DNA of 64,000 nucleotides from Gammaproteobacteria bacterium (GCA_965277775.1 OZ255843.1:1209641-1273640), one strand, 5' to 3'; shown: positions 12,590 to 45,007, counted from the stretch's first letter. A program made the numbers and translations. Notes: generated by a model not told the origin, from the letters alone.

Positions 12590-13474
12590 CTATGATTTTG
12601 CTGAAGCAACCTGATCTGCGACTTCTTGCGCGAAGTTGTCAACTTTCTTTTCTATGCCTTCACCGACTTCAAATCGGACAAAACTCAGAACGCTGGCAGA
12701 TTGCCCTTTTAGCAGTTGATTGATGGTTTGATCTGGATCTTTTACAAAAGGTTGATTGACCAAAGTGATGGTTTTCAAAAATTTATTGATCTGACCTTGA
12801 ACGATTTTATCAATAATGTTTTCAGGCTTTCCAGATTGTTTGGCCTGTTCAGCAAAAATGGCGCGCTCTTTTTCGATCAGAGTCGGGTCAACTTGTTGTT
12901 CATCCAATGCTTGGGGCTTTAATGCTGCAATATGCATGGCAACGTCTTTACCCAAAGCATCATCGCCACCGTCTAAGGCAGCCAGCACGCCAATCTTAAC
13001 ACCATGATTGTAATAAGAGATTTGACCGCCCTGAATCAGGTGAGCCCGACGAACAGTGATGTTTTCGCCAAGCTTGGCAATCAATACCCGACGACATTCT
13101 TCTACGGTTTTGCCGTCACTCAGCGTGCGGTTATTAAGTGCTTCAATGTCAGTGGTTGAAGATGACAGGGCTAAGGCGGCGACCGCATCTGCAAAGTCAA
13201 TAAAATCTTGACCCTTGGCCACGAAATCTGTTTCACAATTGATTTCAGCAATGACCGCTTGTGTGCCATCGTCTGATCGTTTGGTGACAATGCAGCCATC
13301 AGCCGCAATTCGACCCGCTTTTTTATCGGCCTGAGCCATGCCTTTCTTGCGCATGGTTTCTACAGCGAGTTCAAGGTCACCCTGGCTTTCTACCAACGCT
13401 TTCTTGCACGCCATCATACCAGCGCCTGTGCGCTCACGCAATGTTTTTACGAGGCTTGCAGTAATGGTTGTCAT
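12590..13474 (-). CDS. tsf: translation elongation factor Ts
   Basis: 294 aa, N-terminal UBA-like TASLVKTLRERTGAGMMACKKAL, EF-Ts dimerisation domains; synteny rpsB-tsf-pyrH. Confidence 0.93.
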   Translation of the reverse strand: MTTITASLVKTLRERTGAGMMACKKALVESQGDLELAVETMRKKGMAQADKKAGRIAADGCIVTKRSDDGTQAVIAEINCETDFVAKGQDFIDFADAVAALALSSSTTDIEALNNRTLSDGKTVEECRRVLIAKLGENITVRRAHLIQGGQISYYNHGVKIGVLAALDGGDDALGKDVAMHIAALKPQALDEQQVDPTLIEKERAIFAEQAKQSGKPENIIDKIVQGQINKFLKTITLVNQPFVKDPDQTINQLLKGQSASVLSFVRFEVGEGIEKKVDNFAQEVADQVASAKS

Positions 13475-14496
13475 GATGATTTCTTCTCCGTATCAGAGGC
13501 TTGTTCTTTGGACTCAGTGACTTCTACAGCTTCGGTCGCTTCTTTTGCAAGCACTGCTTCTTCAGTGGATTCTGCGGCTTCTTCTGCAGGCGCCACATCT
13601 GCAGTGGATTCTGCGACTTCTTCTACGGGCGCCACTTCTTCAGGTGCAGCTTCTGCTTCAACCGCTGTTTCAGCTGTTTCACTGGCTTTGGCCACTTCTA
13701 CAGCTTCAGCAGTGTCTTGAACAGCATCGGCATTTTCTTCATTGGTAGCCTCAGAGTCAGTTACGCTGTCTTCAGTCTCTGCCTGTACTTCCACGAATTC
13801 TTCAACGATGTCAACATTGGCATTCATAATGGCCTCAGTCACGTGGGAAATGTAATACTCAATCACTCTACGGCCATCGTCGTTACTTGGGATGACGTAA
13901 TCGACATTGATCGGAGAGCTATTGGTATCGACCACAGCAACGACGGGGATTTTTTTCGCCAGCGCCTTTGCTTCTGAAATGGCAATGTGTTCATGGCGTG
14001 CATCGATTATAAAAATTGCATCGGGCATGCTTTCCATGTCTTTGATGCCTTTTAGGTTGCGACTGAGTTTTTCCATTTCGCGCGTTCGCAGCAAGGCTTC
14101 TTTTTTGGTGATTTTTTCAAAAGAGCCATTGGCCGATTGCGATTCCAGTTCTTTTAAGCGATTGATGGACTGTTTGATGGTTTTAAAGTTGGTTAACATG
14201 CCCCCCAACCAGCGATGTGAGACATAAGGCATGCCACAGCGTTCAGCGTACTGCTCAATGATTTTTCCAGCGCTGCGTTTGGTACCAACAAATAACACGG
14301 TTCCGTTATTTGCGGCAATGCTTGAAATAAAATTTAACGCATCCTCAATCATTGGGACGGTTTTTTCTAAGTTCAAGATGTGGATGTTATTGCGCACGCC
14401 GTAAACGTATTCGTGCATTTTAGGATTCCAAAAGCGTTTTTGGTGGCCGAAATGCGCCCCAATTTTGAATAACTCTTGTATTTTAATTTCAGACAT
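13471..14496 (-). CDS. rpsB: 30S ribosomal protein S2 with ~90-aa acidic Ala/Glu/Val-rich C-terminal extension
   Basis: N-terminal 250 aa canonical S2 (GAHFGHQKRFWNPKM...), then low-complexity tail ETEDSVTDSEATNEENADAVQDTAEAVEVAKASETAETAVEAEAAPEEVAPVEEVAESTADVAPAEEAAESTEE... Confidence 0.93.
   Translation of the reverse strand: MSEIKIQELFKIGAHFGHQKRFWNPKMHEYVYGVRNNIHILNLEKTVPMIEDALNFISSIAANNGTVLFVGTKRSAGKIIEQYAERCGMPYVSHRWLGGMLTNFKTIKQSINRLKELESQSANGSFEKITKKEALLRTREMEKLSRNLKGIKDMESMPDAIFIIDARHEHIAISEAKALAKKIPVVAVVDTNSSPINVDYVIPSNDDGRRVIEYYISHVTEAIMNANVDIVEEFVEVQAETEDSVTDSEATNEENADAVQDTAEAVEVAKASETAETAVEAEAAPEEVAPVEEVAESTADVAPAEEAAESTEEAVLAKEATEAVEVTESKEQASDTEKKSS
13563..13640. repeat. two tandem ~39-bp imperfect repeats inside the rpsB 3' acidic-tail coding region
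   Basis: cagtggattctgcggcttcttctgcaggcgccacatctg / cagtggattctgcgacttcttctacgggcgccacttctt (about 33/39 identical). Confidence 0.8.
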
Positions 14497-14864
14497 ATTT
14501 TCCTTTGTCTTGTAGAGAATAAATGTAGCAGTCCCTCAATCGCATGGCGCGACCACAGTAAAAGTCAAAAACCGCTGAAGTGCATCGCTTCTGCGAGTCT
14601 ATAACCAACCGTACAAGCGCCTTTGTTTAGGCTACTGTATTATTCTCAGGGTTTAACCTCCGCTTATCCCAGTGAATAAATAATCTCAATGTGTCTCAAC
14701 CATTTAGATAAATGATTGTGGCGGTTCAAGATCATCACCCCATTCACTGTGTCGATGAAGCGTGTGTTTTAGTATGAGACAAATGTCTCAGTTTATTTAA
14801 TTAGGCGCGCTTTATACCAAATAAAGGGTGTTTTTTCAACAGATATTTGGTGAAATTGACGGTT

Positions 14865-15488
14865 CTATTCTCGATTGACCAGAATTTCATCAACCAATCT
14901 ATAACTTTTGGCCTCATCAGCGCTTAAATAATAGTCACGATCCGTGTCTTTTGCGATCTTATCTATGGGCTGATCGGTGTGTTTGGCCAAAATTTGATTG
15001 AGTTGATTTTTGGCTTTTAGTATTTCTTGGGCATGTATTTCAATGTCGCTGGCTTGTCCCTGGTAGCCCCCCAATGGTTGATGAATCATCACCCTTGAGT
15101 TTGGCAAGCAAAACCGTTTGCCTGCGGCACCAGCGGCCAATAAAAGCGCACCCATGCTGGCGGCTTGGCCCAAACACATGGTGCTCACATCTGGCGCAAT
15201 GAACTGCATGGTGTCATACACAGCAAGACCCGCACTCACGGTTCCACCCGGTGAATTGATGTAAAAATGAATGTCTTTTTTGGCGTTTTCTGATTCAAGG
15301 AAAAGCAATTGAGCAATCACCAGATTAGCGGTTTCATCGGTCACAGGACCCACTAAAAAAATCACCCGTTCTCTGAGTAGGCGCGAGTAAATGTCAAAAG
15401 CGCGCTCGCTGCGTCCACTTTGTTCAACAACCATTGGGACAAGGCTGTTGTTGTCAATGTCTAGATTGTTTTTGTTTAGCATGCTCAT
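14865..15488 (-). CDS. clpP: ATP-dependent Clp protease proteolytic subunit
   Basis: 207 aa, catalytic Ser in [11 protein letters not shown], His in MIHQPLGG; downstream of tig; no clpX follows. Confidence 0.95.
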
Positions 15489-15490
15489 TG

Positions 15491-16801
15491 TTATTCCGAT
15501 TTTGTGGTTTCTTTAAACGATTGTTGCTGCGCTTTCAGGGTGGCTTCACTCAAGACTTTTTCAACGACTTGGCGTTCTAATACGGCATTTTCCAAATCGG
15601 CTCTAACGGCTTTGTTATTCATAAAATACTGCCGAGCTTCTTCAGCATTTGGATACTGGCTGACTTGATCGTCAACCATTTCATCTAACAATTTGGAGTC
15701 TATTGTTAGTTCTGACTGCTGAATGATGCTATAGAATATAAGCCCAACGCGCACACGTTTCTGAACATTTTCGCGCATTTCATCGTTCAATAAGTCGGTT
15801 TTTTCTGAGATCGGTTGATTCGCCATTTTCTGACGTTCTTGAATTTGTTTGACGATGGTTTCCGTTTCCTGTGCAATCATCGCTTCAGGGATGGGAAAAT
15901 CGTTTTCTTTTAACAAGGCGTCAATTGTCGATTCACGGTTTTTTTGGTAGTCCAAACCTTTGGCTTCGCGTTCTAACCGAGTTTTTATATCGTTTCTCAA
16001 ATCGTCTATCAAACCCGAGGCAATGCCAAGACGCTTGATGAACGACTCGTCAAGGGTACTTTCAATCTTTTCTTCAATCGAATGAACTTTGAATTTAAAT
16101 TGTGCCGCTTTTCCAGCCAAGTGCTGAGCGTGATATTGCTCAGGAAAAGTGACGTCAACGGTTTTTTCATCGTTGGGTTTCATGCCAATAATGCCTTCTT
16201 CAAAACCAGGGATCATCTGACCTTCACCAAGCACCATCTTATGATTTTCGGCTTTTCCGCCTTCAAAAGCGACGTCGTCTAAAAAGCCCTCAAAATCCAT
16301 GGTGATTTGATCACCCGTTTTTGAAGCTCTGTCAACACTTGCCCATGAAGCGTGCGATGAACGCATTTTCTCTACCATGTCGTCAATGTCGGTGTCCTCA
16401 ATGACGGTATTTATGGTGTTGATTTTTAATTTTTTATGATCCGCTAGGGTAAATTCTGGATATATCTCAAACACCGCGGTAAACGAAGCTTTTTCTAAAT
16501 CCTTTACATCTAAGTCTTGAAAGTCTGGGGTGCCGACCGGGTTTAGTTCGAGTTGCTTGAGCCCCGCACTATAAGCCTTGTCAACGCGATCATTGATTAC
16601 CTCCAGAAACACTTCCTGACCATATTGTTGTTGCATGATTGACATGGGGATTTTGCCAGGTCGGAAGCCGTTTAATTTGACTTTGTTTTTCAACCGACCC
16701 AATCTTTGAGTGACTTCTTGTGAGACATTTTCTGCGGCAAATTCGACAGTCATTCGGTGCTCTAATGGCTTGTCCTTATTGGTCGTAAAGGTTGCTTTCA
16801 T
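15491..16801 (-). CDS. tig: trigger factor
   Basis: 436 aa, ribosome-binding N-domain, FKBP-like PPIase region ([15 protein letters not shown]), tig-clpP synteny. Confidence 0.9.
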
Positions 16802-17296
16802 GAATTTTTATGATCAAAGGGTTAAAGGGATCGTAGAAGTTGGATTCAAAGTGCGGTTCGGATAAAGGTTTCAACAAACCTTATTCGATCAGACTCAAGT
16901 GGCGCTTAATCAGCGTTGTTGGCCACTCAATGTCCATATTGTGGGCAGAATCTTAACGTTGACGAGCCTTGAATCGAGGGTCTGTCTTACAGATAACAAA
17001 CACTTTGCCACGACGGCGTACGATTTGACAATCTCTGTGTCTAGATTTGGCAGATTTTAAAGAAGATAGAATTTTCATGTTAAATTACGATTATGGTGAA
17101 TATTGTCATTAAGCGTCTTGAGCCACTAATCTTAGAAAAAACAAGCGTTTATCCAATTTAGACGGTGCGCGCCTTTATTCAAAGGACGGGATTATACTAA
17201 ATTCATGAGCGGAAGTTTTGATTTATCCCATTAAAAAGGCATTTAACAGGCAATTTGAGCAAAAATTTGCCCAAATCTTCGCTCTGTGTCTAAAAA

Positions 17297-18931
17297 TCAG
17301 GTATTGCTCAAGGTGTTTCTGAGTTTGAACTTCTGAATTTTACCAGTGACGGTTTTGGGCAATGTACAAAACACGTAGTTTTTCGGGACTTTAAAACCAG
17401 CCAAATGCTGACGACAGAAGGCATCCAATTCAGCTGCATCGGTGTGGGCGGTTTCCTTCAACTCAATAAAGGCGCAAGGCACTTCCCCCCATTTTTCATC
17501 GGCTTGAGCCACGACGGCAGCGACTGAAACGGCGGGGTGATTGTATAGGGTGGCTTCGATTTCTACAGAAGAAATATTTTCACCGCCCGAGATAATGACA
17601 TCCTTCAAGCGATCGCGGATTTGGACATAGCCATTTTCTTGCCAAGTCGCGACGTCTCCAGTATGAAACCAACCATCGGCAAAAGCACGCTCCGTTTGCT
17701 CAGGGGCTTTATAGTAGCCTTTCATCACGGCATTGCCACGGATGAGAATTTCGCCTTCGGTATCAGAGTCTTGAGGGATGAGCTCGCCAGAGTCCAAAGA
17801 TTGTAGCTGCACGGCCTCATTCATGGGGAAAGTAACGCCTTGCCAGCTTTTAATTTCTGCCCGTTCTTGATCATCGCGTTGGTCCCATTTTGACTGCCAC
17901 AAACATTGAGTAACGTGACCATAAGTCTCGGTTAGACCATAAACTTGGGTGACTTTAAAATTAAGTTTTTCCATCGCAATGAAAATTGCGGGCGGCGGGG
18001 GTGCACCCGCGGTAAAGACATTAACAACATGATCGATGGTCCGTTGTTCAGAGGGTGGTGCATTAGCCAATAGCCCAAGTACGATGGGCGCACCGCCCAT
18101 GTGCGTGATGCGGTGTTCGGCAATGTCGTCAAAAACCCGTTTGGCGGTAATGACTCGACAGCAAACAATGGAGCCGGCCATCAAACACATTGTCCAACTA
18201 TGCCCCCAACCATTGCAATGAAACAGTGGAACGGTGGCCAAATAAACGGCGTGCATGGGTAATTCCCAAGCAGCGATTGTGCCCATGCTCATGAGGTAAG
18301 AGCCCCGATGATGATAGACCACGCCTTTGGGTTTGCCCGAAGTCCCTGAGGTGTAGTTCAGGGTCAGCGCTTGCCATTCATCCTCAGGCAAGTGTGCGTC
18401 AGCGAGAATTTCTTCTGTTATAGGGGTTTCAGCAAGCAGCGCTTCATACTCAAAATCCCCCAAGGTTGAAGTGACATTTTCTTGTAAATCATCGACTCGA
18501 ATAATAGGGATATCCAAACCTTCATCTTGGATGATCTTGGACGCTGTTTCAATAAACTGGCTGTCAACAATCAGCAGTTTGCTGTCGGCATGTTTGAGTA
18601 TATAGCTGATAGTAGCAGGTTCTAACCGATAATTGATGGTGTTCAACACCGCCCCGCACATGGGGACGCCAAAATGGGCTTCAACCATCTCAGGCGTATT
18701 GGTCAAAAGCGCAGAAACGGTGTCTCCCAACTGAATGCCCTTGTTTTTCAATGCGGTGGCCAATTTTTTGGTGCGCACGTGTACTTCTGACCAGGTATAA
18801 CGTCTTTTGCCGTAAATGACCGCCAAATGATCTGGGAAGATGGCCGCAGTACGTCCCATGAAAGACAGGGGACTGAGTGGCACATAATTGGCTTGATTGG
18901 GCTGGAGTTGTTGATAGTGTTTATGCGACAT
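17297..18931 (-). CDS. AMP-forming acyl-CoA ligase (candidate 3-methylmercaptopropionyl-CoA ligase, DmdB-like)
   Basis: 544 aa; AMP-binding signature YTSGTSGKPKGV; C-terminal ligase domain; clustered with GcvT-like and ACAD genes. Confidence 0.85.
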   Translation of the reverse strand: MSHKHYQQLQPNQANYVPLSPLSFMGRTAAIFPDHLAVIYGKRRYTWSEVHVRTKKLATALKNKGIQLGDTVSALLTNTPEMVEAHFGVPMCGAVLNTINYRLEPATISYILKHADSKLLIVDSQFIETASKIIQDEGLDIPIIRVDDLQENVTSTLGDFEYEALLAETPITEEILADAHLPEDEWQALTLNYTSGTSGKPKGVVYHHRGSYLMSMGTIAAWELPMHAVYLATVPLFHCNGWGHSWTMCLMAGSIVCCRVITAKRVFDDIAEHRITHMGGAPIVLGLLANAPPSEQRTIDHVVNVFTAGAPPPPAIFIAMEKLNFKVTQVYGLTETYGHVTQCLWQSKWDQRDDQERAEIKSWQGVTFPMNEAVQLQSLDSGELIPQDSDTEGEILIRGNAVMKGYYKAPEQTERAFADGWFHTGDVATWQENGYVQIRDRLKDVIISGGENISSVEIEATLYNHPAVSVAAVVAQADEKWGEVPCAFIELKETAHTDAAELDAFCRQHLAGFKVPKNYVFCTLPKTVTGKIQKFKLRNTLSNT

Positions 18932-18978
18932 GATTAAGTCTCTTGCAAGTTAAAAAAAGGTTGGCAGACGAATGATCA

Positions 18979-20079
18979 TCAAACAAATGGTAGGGGGCTG
19001 ACGATGCCGCCTCTTAATCCGTTCGGTGTTTCAATCATAACCGTTTGCTCTGGCTCGTTAAAGGGGAGCTTGAGCATGGCAATGGCGATGTTGGTCTGTA
19101 AATCTGGCGACCAAGTCGTTGAGGTGACCTGGCCAATGCATTGCTCATCGACAAAGGTGCGCCATGGGGCAATACAGGATGGGACGGCTGATCCTTCTAT
19201 TTTTATCCCGCATATTTTTTGTTGATCAGGGGCTTGGATGCGCTGCTCTAATGCGGCACCGCCTATACACTGTGTCATCATTTCTGGGTCGCATAATTGG
19301 CCAAACCCGCATTCGTGTGGCGTGTTTTCTCTGTTCATATCGTTGCCATAGGACAACAAGCCGCCCTCAATTCGCTCGATCAGATTGGGACCCCCGGCGC
19401 GCACATCAAAATCCGCCCCATTTTTGAACATTGTGTCCCACAGTGGCAATGCCTGCATTTCATTCACGTATATTTCAAAGCCGCCTTGTTTGGAAAAACC
19501 CGAACGTGAAATGATCAACGGCTGTCCTAAATAATCAAGGGTTATGAAACGAAAAAAACGAAGGTGTTCTATGTCTGCGCCAAAAATTGATTTTAATAGA
19601 TCTGTGGATTTGGGGCCTTGAACAGCTAAGGGAAAGATGATGGGCTGACTGACGGTTACTTGCAAATTCATGCCAACGGCCAAACCTTTTACCCAGAGCA
19701 GTAAATCGGAGTCGGCAATAGAAATCCAATAACGATCGTCGCCTAATTTCAACGTTACGGGGTCATTTAACATCCCGCCTGTTTCGTCGATGATGGGCGT
19801 GTAATAACATTGACCGACGACCAATTTTGACATGTTACGCGGTGTTAATTTTTGTAACAGGATGGCGGCATCAGGACCTTGTAATTCGATTTGTTTTTCA
19901 CAAGAGACGTCCCACACTTGCACATGGTCTTTAAGGTGGCGGTAATCGGCTTCAAGCGATTCGAAGCTGGTGGCTAAGAGCGTGTGGTTATATACGGTAT
20001 AACTCTTAACACCCAAGTCGTGCAAGCGCCCAGTAAAAGGCGAGTTATTGATGCGTCTGGATATAGAAAGCGTTGTCAT
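18979..20079 (-). CDS. stand-alone GcvT-family aminomethyltransferase (candidate DMSP demethylase, DmdA-like)
   Basis: 366 aa; glycine-cleavage T-protein fold features (SPF..., VWDVS..., C-terminal barrel); no gcvH/gcvP nearby; 4-nt overlap with upstream ACAD gene. Confidence 0.8.
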   Translation of the reverse strand: MTTLSISRRINNSPFTGRLHDLGVKSYTVYNHTLLATSFESLEADYRHLKDHVQVWDVSCEKQIELQGPDAAILLQKLTPRNMSKLVVGQCYYTPIIDETGGMLNDPVTLKLGDDRYWISIADSDLLLWVKGLAVGMNLQVTVSQPIIFPLAVQGPKSTDLLKSIFGADIEHLRFFRFITLDYLGQPLIISRSGFSKQGGFEIYVNEMQALPLWDTMFKNGADFDVRAGGPNLIERIEGGLLSYGNDMNRENTPHECGFGQLCDPEMMTQCIGGAALEQRIQAPDQQKICGIKIEGSAVPSCIAPWRTFVDEQCIGQVTSTTWSPDLQTNIAIAMLKLPFNEPEQTVMIETPNGLRGGIVSPLPFV

Positions 20080-21251
20080 TTCTCATCAAAACCTTTAGGA
20101 ATGTCAATGGCGGGCAAAGATTCAGCGCGCTGTTGTAGGGCGCGGCCTATAACGAGCCTTTGAATCTCTGTCGTACCATCAACGATTTTTAACATTTGTG
20201 CCAAGCGACTGAGGCGATCCAATCCATAAGGTTTTAATAATCCCATCCCGCCGAGCACTTGGGTGCAGGTATTTGCCGCACGTAAGGCCGCGTCGGGCAC
20301 AAAACGTTTAGCGTGCGCCGCCAGAAGCGTTCCTTCATCGGTCCCCAAGGCGTTGGCGGCTTTTTGGTAGAGCAATTTAGACACCTCAAGATCAGTCGAT
20401 ACCTCACCCAACATCCATTGGATGCCGTCTAATTTTAAATTGGTTGAGCCGAACATTTTGCGGTCTTTGGCGTAGCGTAATGCGGTATCTAACGCCGATT
20501 GCATCAAACCACAACAGCCTGAGGCAATGGAAACGCGGGCAATATCAATGGCCATTAATGAACCGCTGAATCCATGACCGATGGGTAGGATGATATTTTC
20601 TGCCGGAACAACAACATCGTGCATCATCATTTCAGACATGGGTAAAAATTGATAAGAAGGCGTGTCGTACAAAGGACCAAATGACAATCCGGGGGTGTTG
20701 GCGGGTATGGCAATCATCATCATGTCTTTATAGCCGGGCACGTCGCTGGTCTTGGCCACGGTTAAATACACATCAGCTTCTGTGGCCAGAGAGACCCAGG
20801 CTTTGGCGCCGTTGATTGTGAAGGTCTTGTCGCCATTGTCTTTGGCAAAGGTTTGCATGGTTCGTGGGTCTGAACCCGCTTGAGGTTCGGTGAGCGCAAA
20901 GTTGGCCAATTTTTTGCCAGCAGTGAGATCTTTAGCCCAATGTTGCTTAAATGCCTCTGTGCCAAAACCACAGACCGCATAAGCACAAATATTGTGCATG
21001 GACAATGCAAAAGCATAAGCCCCATCACCCGCCCCTAAGGCTTCATATACAGGGATGCCGTCGCCAAGCGAAAGCCCTTGACCGCCTAATTCTTCAGGGC
21101 AATAGAGTCCAGTGAGACCGAGTTTGGCCGCCTGATCAGAGGCATCTCTTGGCCATTTGGCCGCCTTATTCCAAGCATCGACATTGGGTTTGATGACGGT
21201 TTCGCAATGCGAACGTGCGGCGTCTAAGATTGTGGTTTTTTTATCGCTCAT
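20076..21251 (-). CDS. acyl-CoA dehydrogenase (candidate MMPA-CoA dehydrogenase, DmdC-like)
   Basis: 391 aa; ACAD signatures (ALTEPQAGSDP; C-terminal QVLGGMG... catalytic region). Confidence 0.85.
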   Translation of the reverse strand: MSDKKTTILDAARSHCETVIKPNVDAWNKAAKWPRDASDQAAKLGLTGLYCPEELGGQGLSLGDGIPVYEALGAGDGAYAFALSMHNICAYAVCGFGTEAFKQHWAKDLTAGKKLANFALTEPQAGSDPRTMQTFAKDNGDKTFTINGAKAWVSLATEADVYLTVAKTSDVPGYKDMMMIAIPANTPGLSFGPLYDTPSYQFLPMSEMMMHDVVVPAENIILPIGHGFSGSLMAIDIARVSIASGCCGLMQSALDTALRYAKDRKMFGSTNLKLDGIQWMLGEVSTDLEVSKLLYQKAANALGTDEGTLLAAHAKRFVPDAALRAANTCTQVLGGMGLLKPYGLDRLSRLAQMLKIVDGTTEIQRLVIGRALQQRAESLPAIDIPKGFDEK

Positions 21252-21566
21252 AGTGTTTCCTTTAGAGTCGTTGCCCTTTGATTCATTGTTAACTGGAACG
21301 GCAACCTATATAGATCGCGATGTTGAATATAATTGGAGAATAATTAAAATATTCAAAACGAACGTTGTTTTAATATCACAGATATTAGTCCCTTAGGGCA
21401 GTCATTTTAAATGACATTGCAAGCAAGAATTAAAAAAATTTCATTGAATTTTTTTATGGTTGTTTTGATTTTTCCTTCAATTAAGAGCGCGGTGTTGAAT
21501 GGTCTGAGCCTGAGACAGCTCGAGACGAACGTCTACGGTGCCTATCAGAGGGCAAACCCTTTAATA

Positions 21567-21599
21567 TTGCTCGCAAGATTTTATGGAGATGGGTATAAT
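21567..21599 (+). promoter_or_regulatory. candidate sigma70 promoter for tRNA-Lys (-10 TATAAT at 21594-21599; weak -35)
   Basis: GGTATAAT 19 nt upstream of mature tRNA 5' end; TTGCTC at 21567-21572 at non-ideal 21-nt spacing. Confidence 0.3.
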
Positions 21600-21617
21600 A
21601 CGCGCGTGTTTGATTAT

Positions 21618-21693
21618 GGGTCGTTAGCTCAGTTGGTAGAGCACTGGACTTTTAATCCATTGGTCCCGCGTTCGAGCCGCGGACGACCCACCA
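21618..21693 (+). tRNA. tRNA-Lys (anticodon UUU)
   Basis: 76 nt cloverleaf GGGTCGT/ACGACCC acceptor, anticodon loop CTTTTAA, T-arm CCGCG-TTCGAGC-CGCGG, encoded CCA; near-identical to E. coli lysT apart from stem changes. Confidence 0.93.
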
Positions 21694-21701
21694 TCCTTTG
21701 A

Positions 21702-22763
21702 TCAAACGCGTCTTTTTTGGCGAACACCGAATGCGACCAATCGCCAATAAATACCCAAATACAGTAATACAAAGCCGAGCAATGCAATCAATAGCAAAGC
21801 GGTGCTTTCACGCAGCCATACGCCAACCAAGGCTGGAATGGCCGCCAACGCCCACAAAAAGGGCGAGACCATAGCGTTTTGCAAGTTTTTAGGCATGCTT
21901 GAGTGACGCCACATCGGCCTGACTACACGTTGATATATCAGCATGTGAAGGTGGACTCGATCGGGCAAACTGGGTGACATTTTGCGCAATACTTTTTTGC
22001 GATACATGGAAAAAAGCGTTTCAACAACGGGGTACGCCATGACTAAAAAACCAAGCCAGGGCGATATTTCATCGTGTCGAACGATCAATAATACGGCAAT
22101 TTCAGCCAACCAAAAACCCAGAAAATAAGCCCCGCCATCGCCACAAAATATTTTGCCCGTTGGACAATTGAAAAGCAATAAACCGAGAGAGGCGGCCGCC
22201 CCCATCACACAGAGCTGCAATAAAAGTACGTCGTTAAGGTGCCAAGCCAGACCGCCAAAGACCGAAATAGCCATGAGACAAAATCCCAACATCAAGCCAT
22301 TATAGCCATCAACAATATTCACAGAATGGGCGACACCGCCAACCGCAAAAACGGTAAATATCAGCGAAGCGATGGTGGATGCCATGAATAACTCATTAAA
22401 CCCGATGACGCCAACGCGCTGAAGTCCAGCATCGACCAGATAAAAAGCAATGGCGGCGGCAACAAAGGTTAGGATGAGGCGCCAAAAAGGATTGATCTTG
22501 CCCGTTAAATCTTCAGCAATGCCACCGATAAACGCCACAAACCCTGCCAGCCAAAGCAAGAGCGCTGGGGGCTCTGCAAATAAAAAACAGCCAACACCGA
22601 TGCTCAGAAAAATGGCAATGCCACCCGTTCTCGGCGTGGGCACAGTGTGGAATTTTTGCGCGCCTTTTAGCTGTGAATCTATGCCAAACTGCCATTTTTT
22701 AGACAGATAAAGCGTGCCTAACACAGTTAAAACAGAAACAACGAAAGTGGTGATAAACAGCAT
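21702..22763 (-). CDS. glycosyltransferase family 4 (WecA/MraY-like undecaprenyl-phosphate HexNAc-1-phosphate transferase)
   Basis: 353 aa polytopic membrane protein with GT4/MraY-like motifs (NSVNIVDGYNGL; CGDGGAYFLGFW). Confidence 0.8.
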   Translation of the reverse strand: MLFITTFVVSVLTVLGTLYLSKKWQFGIDSQLKGAQKFHTVPTPRTGGIAIFLSIGVGCFLFAEPPALLLWLAGFVAFIGGIAEDLTGKINPFWRLILTFVAAAIAFYLVDAGLQRVGVIGFNELFMASTIASLIFTVFAVGGVAHSVNIVDGYNGLMLGFCLMAISVFGGLAWHLNDVLLLQLCVMGAAASLGLLLFNCPTGKIFCGDGGAYFLGFWLAEIAVLLIVRHDEISPWLGFLVMAYPVVETLFSMYRKKVLRKMSPSLPDRVHLHMLIYQRVVRPMWRHSSMPKNLQNAMVSPFLWALAAIPALVGVWLRESTALLLIALLGFVLLYLGIYWRLVAFGVRQKRRV

Positions 22764-40257: not shown

Positions 40258-41544
40258 CTAAATATTAACTTTTAGAGTGCTTTCGTTGTAGGATTCGGCT
40301 TGTTCTTTGATGGTGTTTTTTATCTCTTCTAATTCTCCTTCAACCCATTCGTAGTCACCGTTAAAATTTTTGTGAATGTGCTTTTCAATTGCTTTAAAGT
40401 GGGGTGTTTGCAGTTGATATTCTAATTCGTAGGCACGGTATGGGTCAGATGTTTGGTAACTGTTTAAGCGCCGCTTGACGTCCTTGGCTATACCGACCTT
40501 GTACATTCCTTCCCAGCTGCTATTGGCAATGACATAGACGAATCCCTGTCCAAATGCATCAATGCCATCCTCTGTGAGCTTTGGAACCTGAGTGCTGAAG
40601 TGCGGCTCTGGTCTGAACATATCCGCAGGAACTTCGTTGTCCAAGCGATTTTTAACGAGTTCATATGCTTTATGCGATATGTCAATGCCTACCCATTGTC
40701 GATCTAATTTTTCGGCAGCAATACAAGTGGTGGCACAGCCACAAAAAGGGTCGAGTACCACATCACCTGCGTTGCTGCTGGCTTGGATGATACGCTCTAA
40801 TAAGGCCAGTGGTTTTTGGGTAGGGTAGCCTGTACTCTCTCGGGAATTACCTTTTAATGGAGGAATATAAATCCAACTTTCTGGAAATTTGCCATTATCG
40901 TTGAGCTCAACAACACCTTCTGCAACTTTAGAAGCTTTAGCAGAATATCCCTGTCTGTTAAGGCTTGAGCTGGCGTATGGTTGACGAATGCTCTCTGGGT
41001 TAAATGTCCATGTGTTACCTTTTGAATACCAAAAAATAATGTCATGCACCCGTGATAACTGTTTTTGATTCGGGGCAGATGGTCTGCTATAACACCACAC
41101 CACTTCATTTCTAAAATTTTTCTCACCGAAAATGCAGTCCAGAACAATTTTCAGGTAATGGCTCATGGTTGGATCGCAGTGCAGATATAAGCTACCCGTA
41201 TCCTTTAACAATCGGTGGCATTCAATCAAACGTATAGCCATGTAAACCAAATAGCAATAATTGTACTTATTGCTAAAGGATTTGACGCCTTTTAAGTAAT
41301 CGTGCAGCTCTGGAGACTCAAAACGGATGCTGTCCACCCATTCGTCTTTTACATCCTCTTCTCTGAAAATATCTGAAAATTCAGCCCCTTCTGCACTAGT
41401 GCCAATAGGTGCGGAAAAGATTTTCTTTGTATTAAAAGGGGGATCAAGATAAATCAGATCAACGCAAGCACTATTGATACCCTGCAAAATTTCCAGATTA
41501 TCATGACAAAAGATGGTGCGCGGTTCTACATTGAGGTTGTTCAT
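40258..41544 (-). CDS. beta-class N6-adenine/N4-cytosine DNA methyltransferase fused to C-terminal T5orf172 (GIY-YIG-like) domain
   Basis: Motif IV DPPF (LIYLDPPFNT) near N-terminus, motif I later (VVLDPFCGCATTCIAAEKL): circular permutation of beta-class amino-MTases. C-terminal ~100 aa GFVYVIANSSWEGMYKVGIAKDVKRRLNSYQT...EWVEGELEE matches T5orf172/Mug113 GIY-YIG-like module. Confidence 0.85.
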   Translation of the reverse strand: MNNLNVEPRTIFCHDNLEILQGINSACVDLIYLDPPFNTKKIFSAPIGTSAEGAEFSDIFREEDVKDEWVDSIRFESPELHDYLKGVKSFSNKYNYCYLVYMAIRLIECHRLLKDTGSLYLHCDPTMSHYLKIVLDCIFGEKNFRNEVVWCYSRPSAPNQKQLSRVHDIIFWYSKGNTWTFNPESIRQPYASSSLNRQGYSAKASKVAEGVVELNDNGKFPESWIYIPPLKGNSRESTGYPTQKPLALLERIIQASSNAGDVVLDPFCGCATTCIAAEKLDRQWVGIDISHKAYELVKNRLDNEVPADMFRPEPHFSTQVPKLTEDGIDAFGQGFVYVIANSSWEGMYKVGIAKDVKRRLNSYQTSDPYRAYELEYQLQTPHFKAIEKHIHKNFNGDYEWVEGELEEIKNTIKEQAESYNESTLKVNI

Positions 41545-41807
41545 AGGCTTTTTTCCTATTTAGGGTCTTGCCAAATTGACTGATTTGAGACACACGAAGC
41601 AAGTGATACATTGTACCGAAGATAGGGGTATTTTGGATTTATTTCTGAAGATTGTGGGCCATGGATTAATAAGAACACACTAATACAATTTGGAATTCTG
41701 GCGAATGCAGGCACAACACTGATTAGGGCTATTTCTTAACAAAGTCGCAGTTTGAATCGCTCAGCTTGTATAATTTTATTAACACAAATCATTAACGGAG
41801 CACAGTT

Positions 41808-42242
41808 ATGGCAACAATTTTTCATCGATTAGCAATCAAAGCCAGCCCAGAGTCAACCTACAAAGCATTAACTCAAGCAGAAGGGCTGAGTCAATGGTGG
41901 GCGCGTTCAACGGGCGCTTCAGAGGTGGGTAATACCCTGTCGTTCTTTTTTGGACCGAACGGGGAATTTGAACTCAATATGGCGGTTGAGGCCTTAGAAG
42001 AGAACCAAAAAGTGGTTTGGCGTTGCACCAACGGTCCTTGGGCTGAAATGGGTCAATTTACTTTTCGCATTGAAGCGCATGAAGGCGGCACAATGCTGGC
42101 TTTTTCACACGAAGGCTGGCCAGAGCAAAACGATTTTTATGGTCACTGTAATAGCAAATGGGGCTATTTCTTAGTCACCAGTTTGAAAAACCTCTTAGAG
42201 AATGGCCAAGGGCAGCCACATCCAGCTGACCCCGATATTTAA
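41808..42242 (+). CDS. SRPBCC / AHSA1-like (activator of Hsp90 ATPase homologue) domain protein
   Basis: 144 aa; N-terminal ...SPESTYKALT...LSQWW motif typical of AHSA1/SRPBCC; stop overlaps ggt stop (convergent). Confidence 0.6.
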   Translation: MATIFHRLAIKASPESTYKALTQAEGLSQWWARSTGASEVGNTLSFFFGPNGEFELNMAVEALEENQKVVWRCTNGPWAEMGQFTFRIEAHEGGTMLAFSHEGWPEQNDFYGHCNSKWGYFLVTSLKNLLENGQGQPHPADPDI

Positions 42243-43924
42243 TTATTATTCGCTTTTCGGCGCACCCAAGAGGTGCCAATGCCTCTGGAATCACTGGCCG
42301 CTTCAACGGTGCCATCTTTGTAGTGCACAATGGCTTGCATGTTGCCCCAAGTGCGATCTTGTTGTTTGATGTTATGCCCCATGGCTTGTAAATCTTTAAT
42401 CGTTTCTTCAGAAAGGGTATTGGGCTCTAAGGCAACCATATCAGGCAAAAACTGATGGTGCAGTCGGCGACGATTGACGATTTCCACAGCCGAACCACCG
42501 TCCATGGCTGTCAACAATCCTTGCAGGACCATGGTAATGATTCGACTGCCGCCTGGGGTGCCCAGAATGACGGTTCGATCGGGTTGTTCTAATATGGTTG
42601 GGCTCATAGAAGACAACATGCGTTTTCCAGGTTTAATGGCATTGGCTGTGCCACCGACCAAGCCATAGACATTGGGCTCACCCGCTTTGGCGACGAAGTC
42701 ATCCATTTCATCATTTAATAGAATCCCCGTATTGCCCGCAACAAAGCAGCTGCCGAAAGGATAATTGACCGACAAAGTCGCGGCCACGCTGTTGCCGTGC
42801 TTGTCTGTGATGGAAAAATGGGTGGTATGATTGCCCCCTCTTGGGTCTATATTAGCGCTGAACCAAGCGCTTTTGGAGGCTTTCTCGGGGTGGATGCTGG
42901 CAACCAAACCAGCCGCATAGGTTTTGCTGATCAGCTGTTCAATGGGAATGTCAACAAAGTCGCTGTCGCCAAGATAAATGGCGCGATCGCGATAAGCACG
43001 ACGCATGGATTCAATCAGCGCATGGGTTTGTTTGACATCTTGCTTTAACGCTGGGTTTGATGAATGGGCCATCTGCTCCAATTGGTTTAAAATCTGAGCA
43101 ATGGCAATGCCTCCCGAAGAAGGCGGTGGCGCAGAAATTAAGCGGGCATTTTTGAACTTGATATCGATGGGCTCGCGCTCAATGACCTCGTAGTCGAGCA
43201 AATCTTGGTGTTGCCAAATGCCACCGTTCTGTTGCACTGCTTGAATCATGGCGTCAGCAACCGCGCCTTTATAGAATCCATCCGCCCCTTTGTCAGCCAT
43301 TTGTTTGAGCGTCTTTGCTAAATCAGGCTGTACGATTAAGTCGCCAATTTTAGGCAATTCGTTTTGGATTAAAAATGCCTTTGCGCTGTTCGGGTATTTT
43401 TGTAATACGGGCAGGCGCCATTTGGCCAGACGATGGTAAACGCCATCCACTCGAAAACCGTTCTCGGCAATGGCAATGGCAGATTGCAGGTTTTGAGCCA
43501 TGGATTGTTTGCCATAGCGGGTGGACAAATGCTCTAAGGCGGCGGGAATGCCTGGAATACCCGCCGATAAGGGACCGTCAATTGACAAGTTGGGAATCAC
43601 GTTTTTATCGGAATCAAGGTACATGTCTCGATGCGCTTTTAGTGGCGCCTTTTCACGCGCATCCAAGAATACGTAGCGGTTTTCGCTGGAAATATACAGA
43701 AGGTAAAATCCACCACCGCCCAGACCTGAGGAGTAAGGCTCTGCAACGGCCAAAGCCGCTGTTATGGCCACCGCCGCATCAAAGGCATTGCCGCCTTGAT
43801 CAAACACCTCAACGCCCGCTTGGGTGGCAAGTGGATGGGCGGTTGCTATCGCTTCGGCATAGACTTTTGGTGTCAATGCGAGCACAACGATCATCAAATA
43901 TAAACGCAGCTGTTTCTGTATCAT
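42239..43924 (-). CDS. ggt: gamma-glutamyltranspeptidase (periplasmic)
   Basis: 561 aa; signal peptide; autoprocessing/catalytic Thr in GGNHTTHFSI; GG..G..GGSRII motif. Confidence 0.92.
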   Translation of the reverse strand: MIQKQLRLYLMIVVLALTPKVYAEAIATAHPLATQAGVEVFDQGGNAFDAAVAITAALAVAEPYSSGLGGGGFYLLYISSENRYVFLDAREKAPLKAHRDMYLDSDKNVIPNLSIDGPLSAGIPGIPAALEHLSTRYGKQSMAQNLQSAIAIAENGFRVDGVYHRLAKWRLPVLQKYPNSAKAFLIQNELPKIGDLIVQPDLAKTLKQMADKGADGFYKGAVADAMIQAVQQNGGIWQHQDLLDYEVIEREPIDIKFKNARLISAPPPSSGGIAIAQILNQLEQMAHSSNPALKQDVKQTHALIESMRRAYRDRAIYLGDSDFVDIPIEQLISKTYAAGLVASIHPEKASKSAWFSANIDPRGGNHTTHFSITDKHGNSVAATLSVNYPFGSCFVAGNTGILLNDEMDDFVAKAGEPNVYGLVGGTANAIKPGKRMLSSMSPTILEQPDRTVILGTPGGSRIITMVLQGLLTAMDGGSAVEIVNRRRLHHQFLPDMVALEPNTLSEETIKDLQAMGHNIKQQDRTWGNMQAIVHYKDGTVEAASDSRGIGTSWVRRKANNN

Positions 43925-43926
43925 GG

Positions 43927-44283: not shown

Positions 44284-44353
44284 GGAATAAGTATACCACC
44301 AGCCATAAAAGAATTGCAAAGTGATATACAAAGGGCCGTTTTGAAGGGCGTGA

Positions 44354-44749: not shown

Positions 44750-44803
44750 GCAGTCATTTCCTCCGTCAATGCAGTGACTTTGCCATCAGTATAGTAGAAG
44801 GGA

Positions 44804-45007
44804 TTAGGCACCATTTGAAGGTTTCTTGTCATTATTGTCAAATCCAGGAAAATGCGATTTTAAATTATCAATGAGAGTTTCGTGATTACTTAGAATATTT
44901 GCAGGATTAGATTCTACGGTTTTCAGCATGATTGTCATAAGTTGTTCTTTTTGGCTTTCTGTGCCAAAATCATCAATGGCTCTCACAAAACCCTCATACA
45001 TGACCAT
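44804..45007 (-). CDS. small hypothetical protein (67 aa), AT-rich
   Basis: ORF only; co-directional with flanking denV and coiled-coil/TM genes; no recognisable motif. Confidence 0.3.
   Translation of the reverse strand: MVMYEGFVRAIDDFGTESQKEQLMTIMLKTVESNPANILSNHETLIDNLKSHFPGFDNNDKKPSNGA

What the first reader, a model, noticed from the sequence alone, without database searches (positions are those of the whole stretch)
17297..21251. Operon-like trio of acyl-CoA dehydrogenase, stand-alone GcvT-family aminomethyltransferase and AMP-forming acyl-CoA ligase: a candidate dmdC-dmdA-dmdB DMSP demethylation module
Three co-directional genes are packed between tig and tRNA-Lys, with a 4-nt overlap at 20076-20079 and a 47-nt gap at 18932-18978. 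The 366-aa glycine-cleavage T-protein homologue has no gcvH or gcvP partner nearby. It is flanked by a 544-aa AMP-binding ligase (TSGTSGKPKG) and a 391-aa ACAD (TEPQAGSDP). A THF-dependent demethylase, a CoA ligase and an acyl-CoA dehydrogenase are the enzyme set of the DMSP demethylation route (DMSP to MMPA to MMPA-CoA to MTA-CoA) described in Ruegeria pomeroyi, SAR11 and some marine gammaproteobacteria. No enoyl-CoA hydratase (dmdD/acuH) is present in the window. This would point to a marine lifestyle and a role in organosulfur cycling. An alternative is demethylation and beta-oxidation of another methylated carboxylate.
Basis: partly seen in the sequence, partly recalled or inferred. Interest (0 to 1): 0.6.

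Follow-up and report, generated by a model that had tools for sequence, protein, structure and literature searches.

The report
DMSP demethylation operon, unusual dehydrogenase
Three adjacent genes in an uncultured marine gammaproteobacterium most likely encode the first three steps of breaking down the algal sulfur compound DMSP; the demethylase and CoA ligase are ordinary members of known families, but the dehydrogenase is a different, very conserved enzyme type from the one known for this pathway.

Summary
In detail: three co-directional minus-strand genes (ACAD 21251-20076, GcvT-like 20079-18979, ligase 18931-17297), with an ATGA overlap and a 47-nt gap.

- **Demethylase.** The middle protein is DmdA. 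It passes NCBIfam's DMSP demethylase equivalog (503.6 vs 410 bits), fails the GcvT models, and is closest to the solved Pelagibacter DmdA.
- **Ligase.** It fails the NCBIfam MMPA-CoA ligase model, and so does the SAR11 ligase that sits beside dmdA. The two are 52% identical and share subfamily PRK08162.
- **Dehydrogenase.** The ACAD is not a canonical DmdC: 391 aa versus about 590, 21% identity, and Val-Asp where DmdC has its Tyr-Glu catalytic pair. This short ACAD type is still linked to DmdA and/or the same ligase type in 8 of 13 independent contexts (33-60% GC). One context has all four steps contiguous.

The most likely pathway is DMSP to MMPA to MMPA-CoA to MTA-CoA, with a non-orthologous dehydrogenase. 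The window contains no hydratase, metF or methanethiol gene.

Clustered dmd genes are already known in gammaproteobacteria (SAR92), so the module is ordinary. The ACAD substitution is the only new element. Interest is moderate.

The parts
20076..21251 (-). Short acyl-CoA dehydrogenase (391 aa, three ACAD domains) and first gene of the trio. It belongs to a distinct, tightly conserved subfamily with Val357-Asp358 where canonical ACADs and DmdC have Tyr-Glu. Proposed role: non-orthologous MMPA-CoA dehydrogenase.
   Evidence: ORF and Pfam domains. No NCBIfam equivalog is passed (best is AcrC, 248 of 640 bits). It is 21% identical to the SAR11 DmdC-type ACAD. Asp is invariant across the family (A1) and aligns with the catalytic Glu of butyryl-CoA dehydrogenase 1BUC. 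It is linked to DmdA and/or the ligase in L001, L081/82, L083, L087, L088, L091, L092 and L093/94.
18979..20079 (-). DmdA, the DMSP:tetrahydrofolate methyltransferase (DMSP demethylase), 366 aa.
   Evidence: NF009133 equivalog scores 503.6 bits against a cutoff of 410. GcvT models score 162.6 (cutoff 300) and 131.8 (cutoff 235.85). PDB 3TFH (Pelagibacter DmdA) scores 328.6 bits against 126.4 for the best GcvT. It is 55-59% identical to proteins that sources name DMSP demethylase, mostly Ruegeria. D106, E202 and Y204 are invariant in alignment A2. It lies inside the DmdA ingroup in the NJ tree.
17297..18931 (-). AMP-forming acyl-CoA ligase (544 aa) of the PRK08162 subfamily. This is the type found beside dmdA in SAR11. 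Proposed role: MMPA-CoA ligase (DmdB).
   Evidence: PRK08162 scores 788 bits against 677. NF005426 scores 299.5 against 822 and is not met. It is 52% identical over its full length to the SAR11 ligase beside dmdA, which shows the same pass/fail pattern. The same family is adjacent to dmdA in L009, L057, L067, L069, L078, L079 and L095. The residues matching His231, Trp235, Arg432 and Lys523 of DmdB structure 6IHK are kept.
20076..20079 (-). ATGA stop/start overlap between the ACAD and dmdA, suggesting co-transcription and translational coupling.
   Evidence: Sequence read (GAG AAA TGA / ATG ACA ACG).
18932..18978 (-). 47-nt spacer between dmdA and the ligase. It is too short to hold much beyond a ribosome-binding site.
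   Evidence: Coordinates. The scan for terminator-like sites gave no excess over shuffled sequence.
21252..21617 (.). 366-nt region upstream of the ACAD, shared with the divergent tRNA-Lys. It is the presumed promoter and regulatory region of the trio (inferred, not shown).
   Evidence: No Rfam element at E<=1. Promoter-like hits do not exceed the shuffle expectation. There is no AraC-type regulator here, unlike L084, L090, L091, L092 and L096.

Best explanation
The trio is an operon-like DMSP demethylation module in an uncultured gammaproteobacterium with a small genome (about 2.1 Mb). DmdA transfers one methyl group from DMSP to tetrahydrofolate, giving 3-methylmercaptopropionate (MMPA) and 5-methyl-THF. 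The downstream PRK08162-type ligase activates MMPA to MMPA-CoA using ATP. The upstream short ACAD oxidises MMPA-CoA to methylthioacryloyl-CoA, using FAD and Asp358 as the alpha-proton-abstracting base. It fills the role played elsewhere by the unrelated long, four-domain DmdC. The hydration and thiol-release step (DmdD/AcuH), the re-oxidation of methyl-THF and the handling of methanethiol must be encoded outside this window. What is shown: gene structure, family assignments, residue conservation and recurrent gene linkage. What is inferred: all substrates and activities. My step-wise confidence is about 0.9 for DmdA, about 0.75 for the ligase acting on MMPA, and about 0.6 for the ACAD acting on MMPA-CoA.
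For: DmdA: it passes the curated equivalog and fails the GcvT models. Its nearest solved structure is DmdA 3TFH. It is 55-59% identical to proteins named DMSP demethylase, mostly Ruegeria. That is closer than the experimentally ratified SAR92 DmdAs are to the R. pomeroyi enzyme (38-40%, PMC10746254). The folate-site residues are invariant.

Ligase: it is in the same NCBIfam subfamily as, and 52% identical to, the ligase beside dmdA in SAR11. [quoted passage not shown] The same family is adjacent to dmdA in Denitrobaculum, Dinoroseobacter, Boseongicola, SAR11 and L095. UniRef names two 58-59% homologues 3-methylmercaptopropionyl-CoA ligase. The catalytic and gating residues of DmdB structure 6IHK are kept (PMC6850173).

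ACAD: the same short Asp-type ACAD is adjacent to DmdA and/or the DmdB-type ligase in 8 of 13 independent contexts. Gene order varies and locus GC ranges from 33 to 60%. L091 has AraC, ACAD, ligase, DmdA (666 bits) and a crotonase in a contiguous row. L093/94 repeat this window's gene order at a different chromosomal site. The DmdA and ligase trees both recover the window, L082, L083 and L093 as a clade with 100% bootstrap support, so the module is inherited as a unit. DmdB and DmdC are known to be broad-specificity enzymes selected mainly by chain length (PMC5395565). The ATGA overlap implies co-expression.
Against: The ACAD fails every test for canonical DmdC: size, domain number, 21% identity and the Tyr434-Glu435 dyad. 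No curated model names it. In Roseobacters it stands alone or behind an AraC regulator, away from dmdA. It may therefore have a primary role other than MMPA-CoA oxidation. The ligase fails the only curated MMPA-CoA ligase model and differs from 6IHK at Gly302, Trp326, Pro333, Lys438 and Trp443. The aromatic residue reported as DMSP-specific (Trp in SAR11) is Phe here. There is no hydratase, metF, DMSP transporter or methanethiol gene in 64 kb. No activity has been measured for any of the three proteins or for a close relative.
Confidence: 0.6

Rival explanations
1. DmdA and the ligase work as proposed, but the short ACAD does something other than MMPA-CoA dehydrogenation in organosulfur or osmolyte catabolism. 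Candidates are a propionyl-/acryloyl-CoA redox step, or a proton abstraction and elimination on a DMSP-derived CoA thioester. The Asp-for-Glu change would reflect this altered chemistry.
For: Val-Asp replaces Tyr-Glu in every member of the family. The ACAD is unusually conserved, about 75% identical across classes, while its partners diverge normally. In Roseobacters it pairs with an AraC regulator, not with dmdA. In Ruegeria atlantica it lies 4.6 kb from a Pfam DMSP_lyase gene. The best, though sub-threshold, NCBIfam hits are acryloyl-CoA reductase AcrC and 3-sulfinopropanoyl-CoA desulfinase.
Against: Those NCBIfam hits are far below their cutoffs (248 of 640 and 187.5 of 600) and are typical of any short-chain ACAD. 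In L091 the ACAD sits exactly in the dehydrogenase slot of a complete four-gene pathway row. Asp can still act as a base. No second candidate dehydrogenase is present in any of the clusters.
Confidence: 0.17
2. Only DmdA is DMSP-specific. The ligase and ACAD are general short- or medium-chain fatty-acid activation and beta-oxidation enzymes that happen to lie next to it.
For: Both belong to broad families with promiscuous members (PMC5395565). Neither passes a pathway-specific curated model. The closest PDB matches are a Thermus fatty-acyl-CoA synthetase and butyryl-CoA dehydrogenase.
Against: The same two subfamilies recur next to DmdA in many unrelated genomes, with rearranged order. The ACAD stop overlaps the dmdA start. 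No thiolase, hydratase or 3-hydroxyacyl-CoA dehydrogenase is nearby to complete a beta-oxidation set.
Confidence: 0.13
3. The module demethylates and oxidises a different methylated onium carboxylate (another sulfonium or a betaine), not DMSP.
For: This DmdA subclade (window, L082, L083, L093) is a separate branch with 100% support and no characterised member. It has Phe at the aromatic position reported to contact DMSP. The sister loci sit among creatinase, metF, dimethylglycine-dehydrogenase-like and other aminomethyltransferase genes.
Against: It scores 94 bits above the curated DmdA cutoff. It is more similar to the Ruegeria DmdA sequences than the experimentally confirmed SAR92 DmdAs are to R. 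pomeroyi DmdA. Phe also occurs in a Dinoroseobacter DmdA and Tyr in Ruegeria DmdAs. Nearby non-DmdA aminomethyltransferases score clearly lower (161.6 and 291.9 bits).
Confidence: 0.07
4. The middle gene is the ordinary glycine-cleavage T protein.
For: It has the GCV_T and GCV_T_C Pfam domains.
Against: It fails all three GcvT models by wide margins while passing the DmdA model. There is no gcvH or gcvP in the window. Its best PDB match is DmdA by more than 200 bits.
Confidence: 0.01

Closest known systems
SAR11 (Ca. Pelagibacter ubique HTCC1062) cluster dmdA-mhpC-fadD(dmdB)-mmgC(dmdC), represented here by loci L078 and L079
   Same: Co-directional ACAD, ligase and DmdA genes in one row. The ligase is the same PRK08162 subfamily (52% identity) and also fails NF005426. 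DmdA passes the same equivalog (514.8 bits) (PMC3160333).
   Different: The SAR11 ACAD is the canonical long type (588 aa, 518 bits to PDB 6IJC, YEGT motif) and only 21% identical to this one. The SAR11 order is ACAD-ligase-(hydrolase)-DmdA, against ACAD-DmdA-ligase here. The DmdAs are 41% identical.
SAR92-clade gammaproteobacterial cluster dmdA-acuH-dmdB-dmdC (PMC10746254)
   Same: Gammaproteobacterial host, clustered demethylation genes, and a DmdB only about 31-33% identical to the R. pomeroyi DmdB query. That fits a second DmdB type like the one here.
   Different: SAR92 clusters include the hydratase acuH, which this window lacks. SAR92 DmdAs are 38-40% identical to R. pomeroyi DmdA, whereas this one is 55-59% identical to Ruegeria DmdAs. 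I could not obtain SAR92 sequences to compare the ACAD type.
Roseobacter DmdA, DmdB (PDB 6IHK) and DmdC (PDB 6IJC) as characterised in PMC6850173
   Same: DmdA is 55-59% identical. The ligase keeps the residues matching His231, Trp235, Arg432, Lys434, Asp435, Gly440, Gly441, Glu442, Lys523 and Lys526. The chemistry proposed for each step is the same.
   Different: The genes are scattered in Roseobacters (no ligase or ACAD within 8 kb of dmdA in most of 70+ loci). The ligase scores only 217 bits against 6IHK. The ACAD lacks the fourth domain and the Tyr434-Glu435 dyad of DmdC.
Short-chain/butyryl-CoA dehydrogenases (e.g. PDB 1BUC, 1JQI)
   Same: Same three-domain fold and length. They are the best PDB matches at about 190 bits.
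   Different: The catalytic Glu in the IYEGT motif is Asp (IVDGT) in this family. The family is a separate, tightly conserved clade found with dmdA, dmdB or an AraC regulator.

Membership tests
DmdA (DMSP demethylase, NCBIfam NF009133 equivalog) | Whole-protein score above the curated equivalog cutoff and above competing GcvT-family models | tested here: met
   503.6 bits against a cutoff of 410. TMAO demethylase 193.4 of 1100, GcvT PRK00389 162.6 of 300, TIGR00528 131.8 of 235.85.
DmdA (DMSP demethylase, NCBIfam NF009133 equivalog) | Groups with experimentally characterised DmdAs and not with GcvT, DMGDH or sarcosine-oxidase T domains | tested here: met
   PDB 3TFH DmdA 328.6 bits, against 126.4 for GcvT 1YX2 and 75 for DMG oxidase. 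In the NJ tree it lies inside the DmdA ingroup, with two non-DmdA aminomethyltransferases as outgroups. True GcvT sequences were not in the tree.
DmdA (DMSP demethylase, NCBIfam NF009133 equivalog) | Folate-binding and catalytic residues of the GcvT fold conserved (Asp108, Glu204, Tyr206 in my numbering of 3TFH) | tested here: met
   D106, E202 and Y204 are invariant in alignment A2. The folate-site residues are as named in PMC7487153. The mapping to 3TFH numbering is my own count.
DmdA (DMSP demethylase, NCBIfam NF009133 equivalog) | Aromatic residue reported as the DMSP-specific contact (W171 in the PMC7487153 alignment, W197 of 3TFH by my count) | tested here: inconclusive
   Phe in the window, L082 and Dinoroseobacter. 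Tyr in Ruegeria, Sneathiella and Denitrobaculum. Trp in SAR11, L083 and L087. An aromatic is kept, but Phe is also what the non-DmdA relatives have.
DmdA (DMSP demethylase, NCBIfam NF009133 equivalog) | DMSP- and THF-dependent formation of MMPA and 5-methyl-THF | not testable with these tools
   Needs an enzyme assay.
DmdB (MMPA-CoA ligase) | NCBIfam 3-(methylthio)propionyl-CoA ligase equivalog NF005426 | tested here: not met
   299.5 bits against a cutoff of 822. The SAR11 ligase beside dmdA also fails (341.5), so this model covers only one DmdB type.
DmdB (MMPA-CoA ligase) | Same orthologous group as a ligase encoded next to dmdA in a DMSP-demethylating organism | tested here: met
   PRK08162 scores 788 against 677. 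It is 52% identical over 537 aa to the SAR11 ligase, which scores 864.9 on PRK08162. Direct MMPA-CoA ligase activity of the SAR11 enzyme is from my memory of Reisch 2011 and Bullock 2014, which are not held here.
DmdB (MMPA-CoA ligase) | Catalytic Lys523 and the MMPA-binding and gating His231 and Trp235 of structure 6IHK | tested here: met
   FHCNGW and TGKIQK align with His231/Trp235 and Lys523/Lys526 (residue roles from PMC6850173). Gly302 to Ala, Trp326 to Tyr, Pro333 to Gly, Lys438 to Ile and Trp443 to Asn differ, exactly as in the SAR11 type.
DmdB (MMPA-CoA ligase) | ATP-dependent ligation of MMPA to CoA | not testable with these tools
   Needs an enzyme assay.
Canonical DmdC (MMPA-CoA dehydrogenase, PDB 6IJC type) | Four-domain architecture of about 590 aa with an extra C-terminal helical domain | tested here: not met
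   391 aa with only Acyl-CoA_dh_N, M and 1. The DmdC architecture is from PMC6850173. The SAR11 DmdC type is 588 aa and matches 6IJC at 518 bits.
Canonical DmdC (MMPA-CoA dehydrogenase, PDB 6IJC type) | Sequence similarity to characterised DmdC | tested here: not met
   21% identity and 68 bits to the SAR11 DmdC type. 6IJC is absent from the PDB hits at E<=1e-30. I could not check whether R. pomeroyi DmdC2 and DmdC3 are of the short type.
Canonical DmdC (MMPA-CoA dehydrogenase, PDB 6IJC type) | Tyr434-Glu435 catalytic dyad | tested here: not met
   Val357-Asp358 (IVDGT) aligns with IYEGT of the SAR11 DmdC type and of 1BUC. Asp is invariant among the 14 family members aligned.
Canonical DmdC (MMPA-CoA dehydrogenase, PDB 6IJC type) | Genomic linkage with dmdA and dmdB (supportive, not defining) | tested here: met
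   8 of 13 independent contexts of this ACAD type.
Glycine cleavage T protein (GcvT) | Passes a GcvT model and is accompanied by gcvH and gcvP | tested here: not met
   All GcvT models are below cutoff. No GCV_H or GDC-P domain is found in any scanned ORF of the window.

The most novel reading that the evidence does not exclude
The short Val-Asp ACAD is not merely a stand-in for DmdC. It would be a dedicated, so far unnamed enzyme family of marine organosulfur catabolism. It is under AraC control in Roseobacters and fused into dmdA-dmdB operons in small-genome gammaproteobacteria. Its altered catalytic base would serve either a specialised MMPA-CoA dehydrogenase or a different reaction on a DMSP-derived CoA thioester. 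If so, gene surveys that count 'dmdC' using only the long type miss the dehydrogenase actually used by these lineages.
Probability: 0.2. Interest if true: 0.6.

Novelty: new variant of a known kind. Interest (0 to 1): 0.38.

Why it matters
DMSP demethylation diverts marine sulfur away from the climate-active gas DMS. Surveys of who performs it rely on marker genes. This locus adds a separate DmdA subclade in uncultured gammaproteobacteria with genomes of about 2 Mb. The sample names of some sister loci suggest host-associated or coastal sources, but I could not verify that.

It also points to a second, unrelated dehydrogenase family occupying the DmdC position in at least seven lineages. If this is confirmed, dmdC marker sets and pathway-completeness calls would need a second model. 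The Asp-for-Glu active site would be a useful case of convergent recruitment within the ACAD superfamily.

The DmdA and ligase assignments on their own are routine annotation.

Tried and rejected
- **Exact-sequence look-up of the window's DmdA** found no contig, although a 100% identical cluster representative exists.
- **The single metagenome scan with the ACAD** returned only two loci because the peptide patterns were too specific. I replaced it with exact-protein context look-ups.
- **Regulatory RNA:** nothing in Rfam apart from tRNA-Lys at E<=1 across 16700-21750.
- **Promoter and terminator scans** gave no more sites than shuffled sequence. A fold of the region downstream of the ligase was not significant (z = -1.26). 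The operon boundaries are therefore inferred from spacing only.
- **Recent horizontal transfer:** the trio's GC3 (0.50-0.51) falls within the range of its neighbours (0.44-0.53). The tRNA-Lys is on the wrong side and strand for a classic island insertion. I found no evidence for recent acquisition.
- **The M24 gene in sister cluster L082** was considered as DddP and rejected. It is a creatinase (611 bits to 1CHM).
- **The Trp-to-Phe difference** at the reported DMSP-contact position was considered as evidence against DmdA and set aside, because Ruegeria DmdAs have Tyr and a Dinoroseobacter DmdA has Phe.
- **Papers not held:** Bullock 2014, Reisch 2011a and Schuller 2012. Statements about the measured activity of SAR11 DmdB and DmdC, and about the size of R. 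pomeroyi DmdC2 and DmdC3, rest on memory or remain open.
- **Literature searches** found no description of a short ACAD acting as DmdC.
- **Organism identity:** I could not place the organism below 'Gammaproteobacteria bacterium' MAG.

Full report
**1. Observation**

| Gene | Coordinates | Length |
|---|---|---|
| ACAD | 21251-20076 | 391 aa |
| GcvT-like | 20079-18979 | 366 aa |
| AMP-binding ligase | 18931-17297 | 544 aa |

- The ACAD stop and the next start share ATGA.
- The second junction is a 47-nt spacer.
- tRNA-Lys(UUU) lies at 21618-21693 on the other strand.
- Pfam gives complete domain sets for all three proteins.
- One correction: the 495 nt between the ligase and tig is not empty. 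It holds a 41-aa ribosomal protein L36 gene (16953-17078).

Pfam scans of essentially every ORF of 130 aa or more show only housekeeping genes in the rest of the 64 kb. These include recA/recX, rnhB-lpxB-lpxA-fabZ-lpxD-skp-bamA-rseP-cdsA-uppS-frr-pyrH-tsf-rpsB, clpP-tig, hemE, alaS, ilv genes, mutL, miaA and lptD. A tblastn search with a FadB/crotonase, thiolase, MTHFR, creatinase, cupin DMSP lyase and the SAR11 hydrolase found nothing beyond the trio itself.

**2. Source organism**

The nearest genome is an uncultured 'Gammaproteobacteria bacterium' MAG with a 2.1 Mb chromosome (OZ255827.1, locus L001). It has the same gene order throughout the 17 kb held and 97-99% identity for the trio. A 100% identical DmdA sits on a 2.06 Mb contig. 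The trio's GC3 (0.50-0.51) is within the range of its neighbours (0.44-0.53), so I see no sign of recent acquisition.

**3. The middle gene is DmdA**

- It scores 503.6 bits on NCBIfam's DMSP demethylase equivalog (cutoff 410). It fails the GcvT models at 162.6 (cutoff 300) and 131.8 (cutoff 235.85).
- Against solved structures, Pelagibacter DmdA (3TFH) scores 328.6 bits. The best true T-protein scores 126.4.
- The large protein search returns proteins that sources name DMSP demethylase, mostly Ruegeria, at 55-59% identity. The experimentally ratified SAR92 DmdAs are only 38-40% identical to the R. pomeroyi enzyme (PMC10746254).
- The Asp, Glu and Tyr of the folate site are invariant.
- A Trp reported as the DMSP-specific contact (PMC7487153) is Phe here. 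The same column is Tyr in Ruegeria DmdAs, Phe in a Dinoroseobacter DmdA and Trp in SAR11. It is an aromatic position and not a strict Trp, so I score this feature as inconclusive.
- In a neighbour-joining tree the window's DmdA forms a clade with 100% support with those of three other low-GC loci (L082, L083, L093). The clade lies inside the DmdA ingroup and apart from two nearby non-DmdA aminomethyltransferases.

**4. The ligase**

It passes the PRK08162 subfamily model (788 against 677 bits). It fails NCBIfam's 3-(methylthio)propionyl-CoA ligase equivalog (299.5 against 822). Taken alone, that would argue against DmdB.

I therefore took the ligase that lies beside dmdA in two SAR11 genomes (L078, L079). 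Their layout is a 588-aa ACAD, a 542-aa ligase, an alpha/beta hydrolase and DmdA. This matches the HTCC1062 cluster dmdA-mhpC-fadD-mmgC described by Sun et al. (PMC3160333). The SAR11 ligase shows the same pattern (PRK08162 864.9, NF005426 341.5) and is 52% identical to the window's ligase over its full length. The curated model evidently covers only the other DmdB type, the one solved as 6IHK.

Further points:
- Against 6IHK the window's ligase keeps the residues matching His231, Trp235, Arg432, Lys434, Asp435, Gly440, Gly441, Glu442, Lys523 and Lys526. It differs at Gly302, Trp326, Pro333, Lys438 and Trp443, exactly as the SAR11 type does.
- The SAR92 cluster's DmdB is likewise only 31-33% identical to the R. 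pomeroyi DmdB.
- The same ligase family is directly adjacent to dmdA in Denitrobaculum, Dinoroseobacter, Boseongicola and L095.
- That the SAR11 enzyme has measured MMPA-CoA ligase activity is from my memory of Reisch 2011 and Bullock 2014. I could not open either paper.

**5. The ACAD is not a canonical DmdC**

- Canonical DmdC is a four-domain protein of about 590 aa with a Tyr434-Glu435 catalytic dyad (PDB 6IJC, PMC6850173). The SAR11 588-aa ACAD matches 6IJC at 518 bits.
- The window's ACAD has three domains and 391 aa. It is 21% identical to the SAR11 DmdC type. It does not hit 6IJC at E<=1e-30.
- It has Val357-Asp358 where DmdC and butyryl-CoA dehydrogenase have Tyr-Glu. By eye, no Glu sits at the alternative base position used by isovaleryl-CoA dehydrogenase.
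- No NCBIfam equivalog claims it.
- Its family is remarkably conserved, about 75% identical between this gammaproteobacterium, four other uncultured lineages and many Roseobacters. The linked DmdA is 48-56% identical and the ligase 55-64%.

**6. Gene linkage of the short ACAD**

I collected 13 independent genomic contexts of this ACAD type.

| Context | Arrangement |
|---|---|
| window / L001 | ACAD-DmdA-ligase |
| L081 / L082 | ACAD-DmdA-ligase, then a creatinase |
| L093 / L094 | ACAD-DmdA-ligase at a different chromosomal site, 33% GC |
| L083 | ACAD-DmdA, with the ligase elsewhere on the contig |
| L087 | ACAD-ligase-DmdA, 56% GC |
| L088 | ACAD convergent with the ligase, 60% GC; the nearby GcvT-like genes are not DmdA |
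| L091 | AraC-ACAD-ligase-DmdA (666 bits)-crotonase |
| L092 | AraC-ACAD-ligase, contig ends |
| L084, L085, L089, L090, L096/97 | ACAD alone or behind an AraC regulator |

So 8 of 13 contexts link the ACAD to DmdA and/or the DmdB-type ligase. Linkage that survives rearrangement across loci spanning 33-60% GC is the main evidence that the ACAD works with DmdA and the ligase. L091 places it in the dehydrogenase slot of a complete four-step row. The DmdA and ligase trees are congruent for the window, L082, L083 and L093, so within that group the module is inherited as a unit.

**7. Mechanism**

Most likely, DmdA converts DMSP and THF to MMPA and 5-methyl-THF. The ligase converts MMPA, ATP and CoA to MMPA-CoA. 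The short ACAD, with FAD and Asp358 as base, converts MMPA-CoA to methylthioacryloyl-CoA. MMPA-CoA is a 4-thia analogue of valeryl-CoA, and known DmdCs accept butyryl- to caproyl-CoA (PMC5395565). A short-chain-type ACAD is therefore chemically plausible, though this is an inference.

The hydratase step, methyl-THF re-oxidation and methanethiol handling are not in this window. Operon status is inferred from the overlap and the short spacer. The promoter and terminator scans and the Rfam search were uninformative.

**8. Comparison with what is known, and novelty**

Clustered dmd genes are documented in SAR11 and in gammaproteobacterial SAR92 (PMC3160333, PMC10746254). dmdA is also reported in gammaproteobacterial symbionts (bioRxiv 10.64898/2025.12.05.692484). 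DmdA here would be auto-annotated correctly, so most of the finding is an ordinary new member of a known kind.

The element I could not find described is the replacement of the long DmdC by a different ACAD subfamily with an Asp base. That subfamily also pairs with an AraC regulator in Roseobacters.

There is a real caveat. I could not compare the ACAD with R. pomeroyi DmdC2 and DmdC3. If one of them is this type, the novelty disappears.

**9. Verdict**

I rate it a new variant of a known kind, of moderate interest.

Noticed in passing
window 16953-17078 (-): A 41-aa ribosomal protein L36 gene (PF00444, 63.9 bits). By eye it resembles the YkgO/type-B paralogue. It sits in the supposedly empty 495-nt spacer between the ligase and tig.
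   Followed up: partly
window 13471-14496 (-): rpsB encodes 341 aa. The S2 domain ends near residue 225 and is followed by an acidic tail of about 115 aa rich in Ala, Glu and Val. The homologue in L001 is 344 aa.
   Followed up: no
window 14651-14784 (-): An Rfam t44 RNA match (53.7 bits, gathering 44) lies directly upstream of rpsB.
   Followed up: no
window 14865-16801 (-): tig-clpP is followed directly by rpsB. There is no clpX or lon after clpP, which fits a rearranged or reduced genome.
   Followed up: no
window 40258-45787: A low-GC patch (0.39-0.42). It holds an N6/N4 DNA methylase fused to a T5orf172 domain (40258-41544), a pyrimidine-dimer glycosylase (44354-44749) and two ORFs with no Pfam hit (43927-44418 and 45032-45787). 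It may be foreign DNA.
   Followed up: no
L082 11915-13120; L081 13389-15548: In the sister lineage the trio is followed by a creatinase (611 bits to PDB 1CHM). In one assembly variant it is also followed by MTHFR and a 426-aa DmdA-like aminomethyltransferase that scores below the DmdA cutoff (291.9 bits). This resembles the SAR11_1265-metF pair discussed in PMC3160333.
   Followed up: partly
L084 6789-9179; L090 6820-9206; L091 6802-9185; L092 909-3292; L096 1770-4196; L097 1021-3351: An AraC-family regulator (Arabinose_bd plus HTH_18) directly precedes the short Val-Asp ACAD in six loci, including Roseobacters where dmdA is elsewhere. This suggests a conserved regulator-enzyme pair with an unknown inducer.
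   Followed up: partly
L084 1060-6660 (Ruegeria atlantica): A row of genes lies just upstream of the AraC-ACAD pair: an acyl-CoA ligase (PRK06187 type), a 228-aa gene with the Pfam DMSP_lyase domain, a FadB-like hydratase/dehydrogenase and a thiolase. It may be a lyase-linked acyl-CoA route.
   Followed up: no
L088 5549-10795: An 807-aa DAO-FAO_M-GCV_T protein (dimethylglycine/sarcosine dehydrogenase-like) immediately precedes the short ACAD, which is convergent with the DmdB-type ligase. The nearby 403-aa GcvT-like gene is not DmdA (161.6 bits).
   Followed up: partly
L091 9291-11029: The DmdB-type ligase in this otherwise complete AraC-ACAD-ligase-DmdA-crotonase row is split into two tblastn segments, and only 289 aa were called. 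This is either a frameshift pseudogene or an assembly error.
   Followed up: no
L095 6398-9718: The nearest DmdA relative outside the window's own 90% cluster is 438 aa. It lies between a DmdB-type ligase and a GFA (glutathione-dependent formaldehyde-activating) gene, with no ACAD nearby.
   Followed up: no
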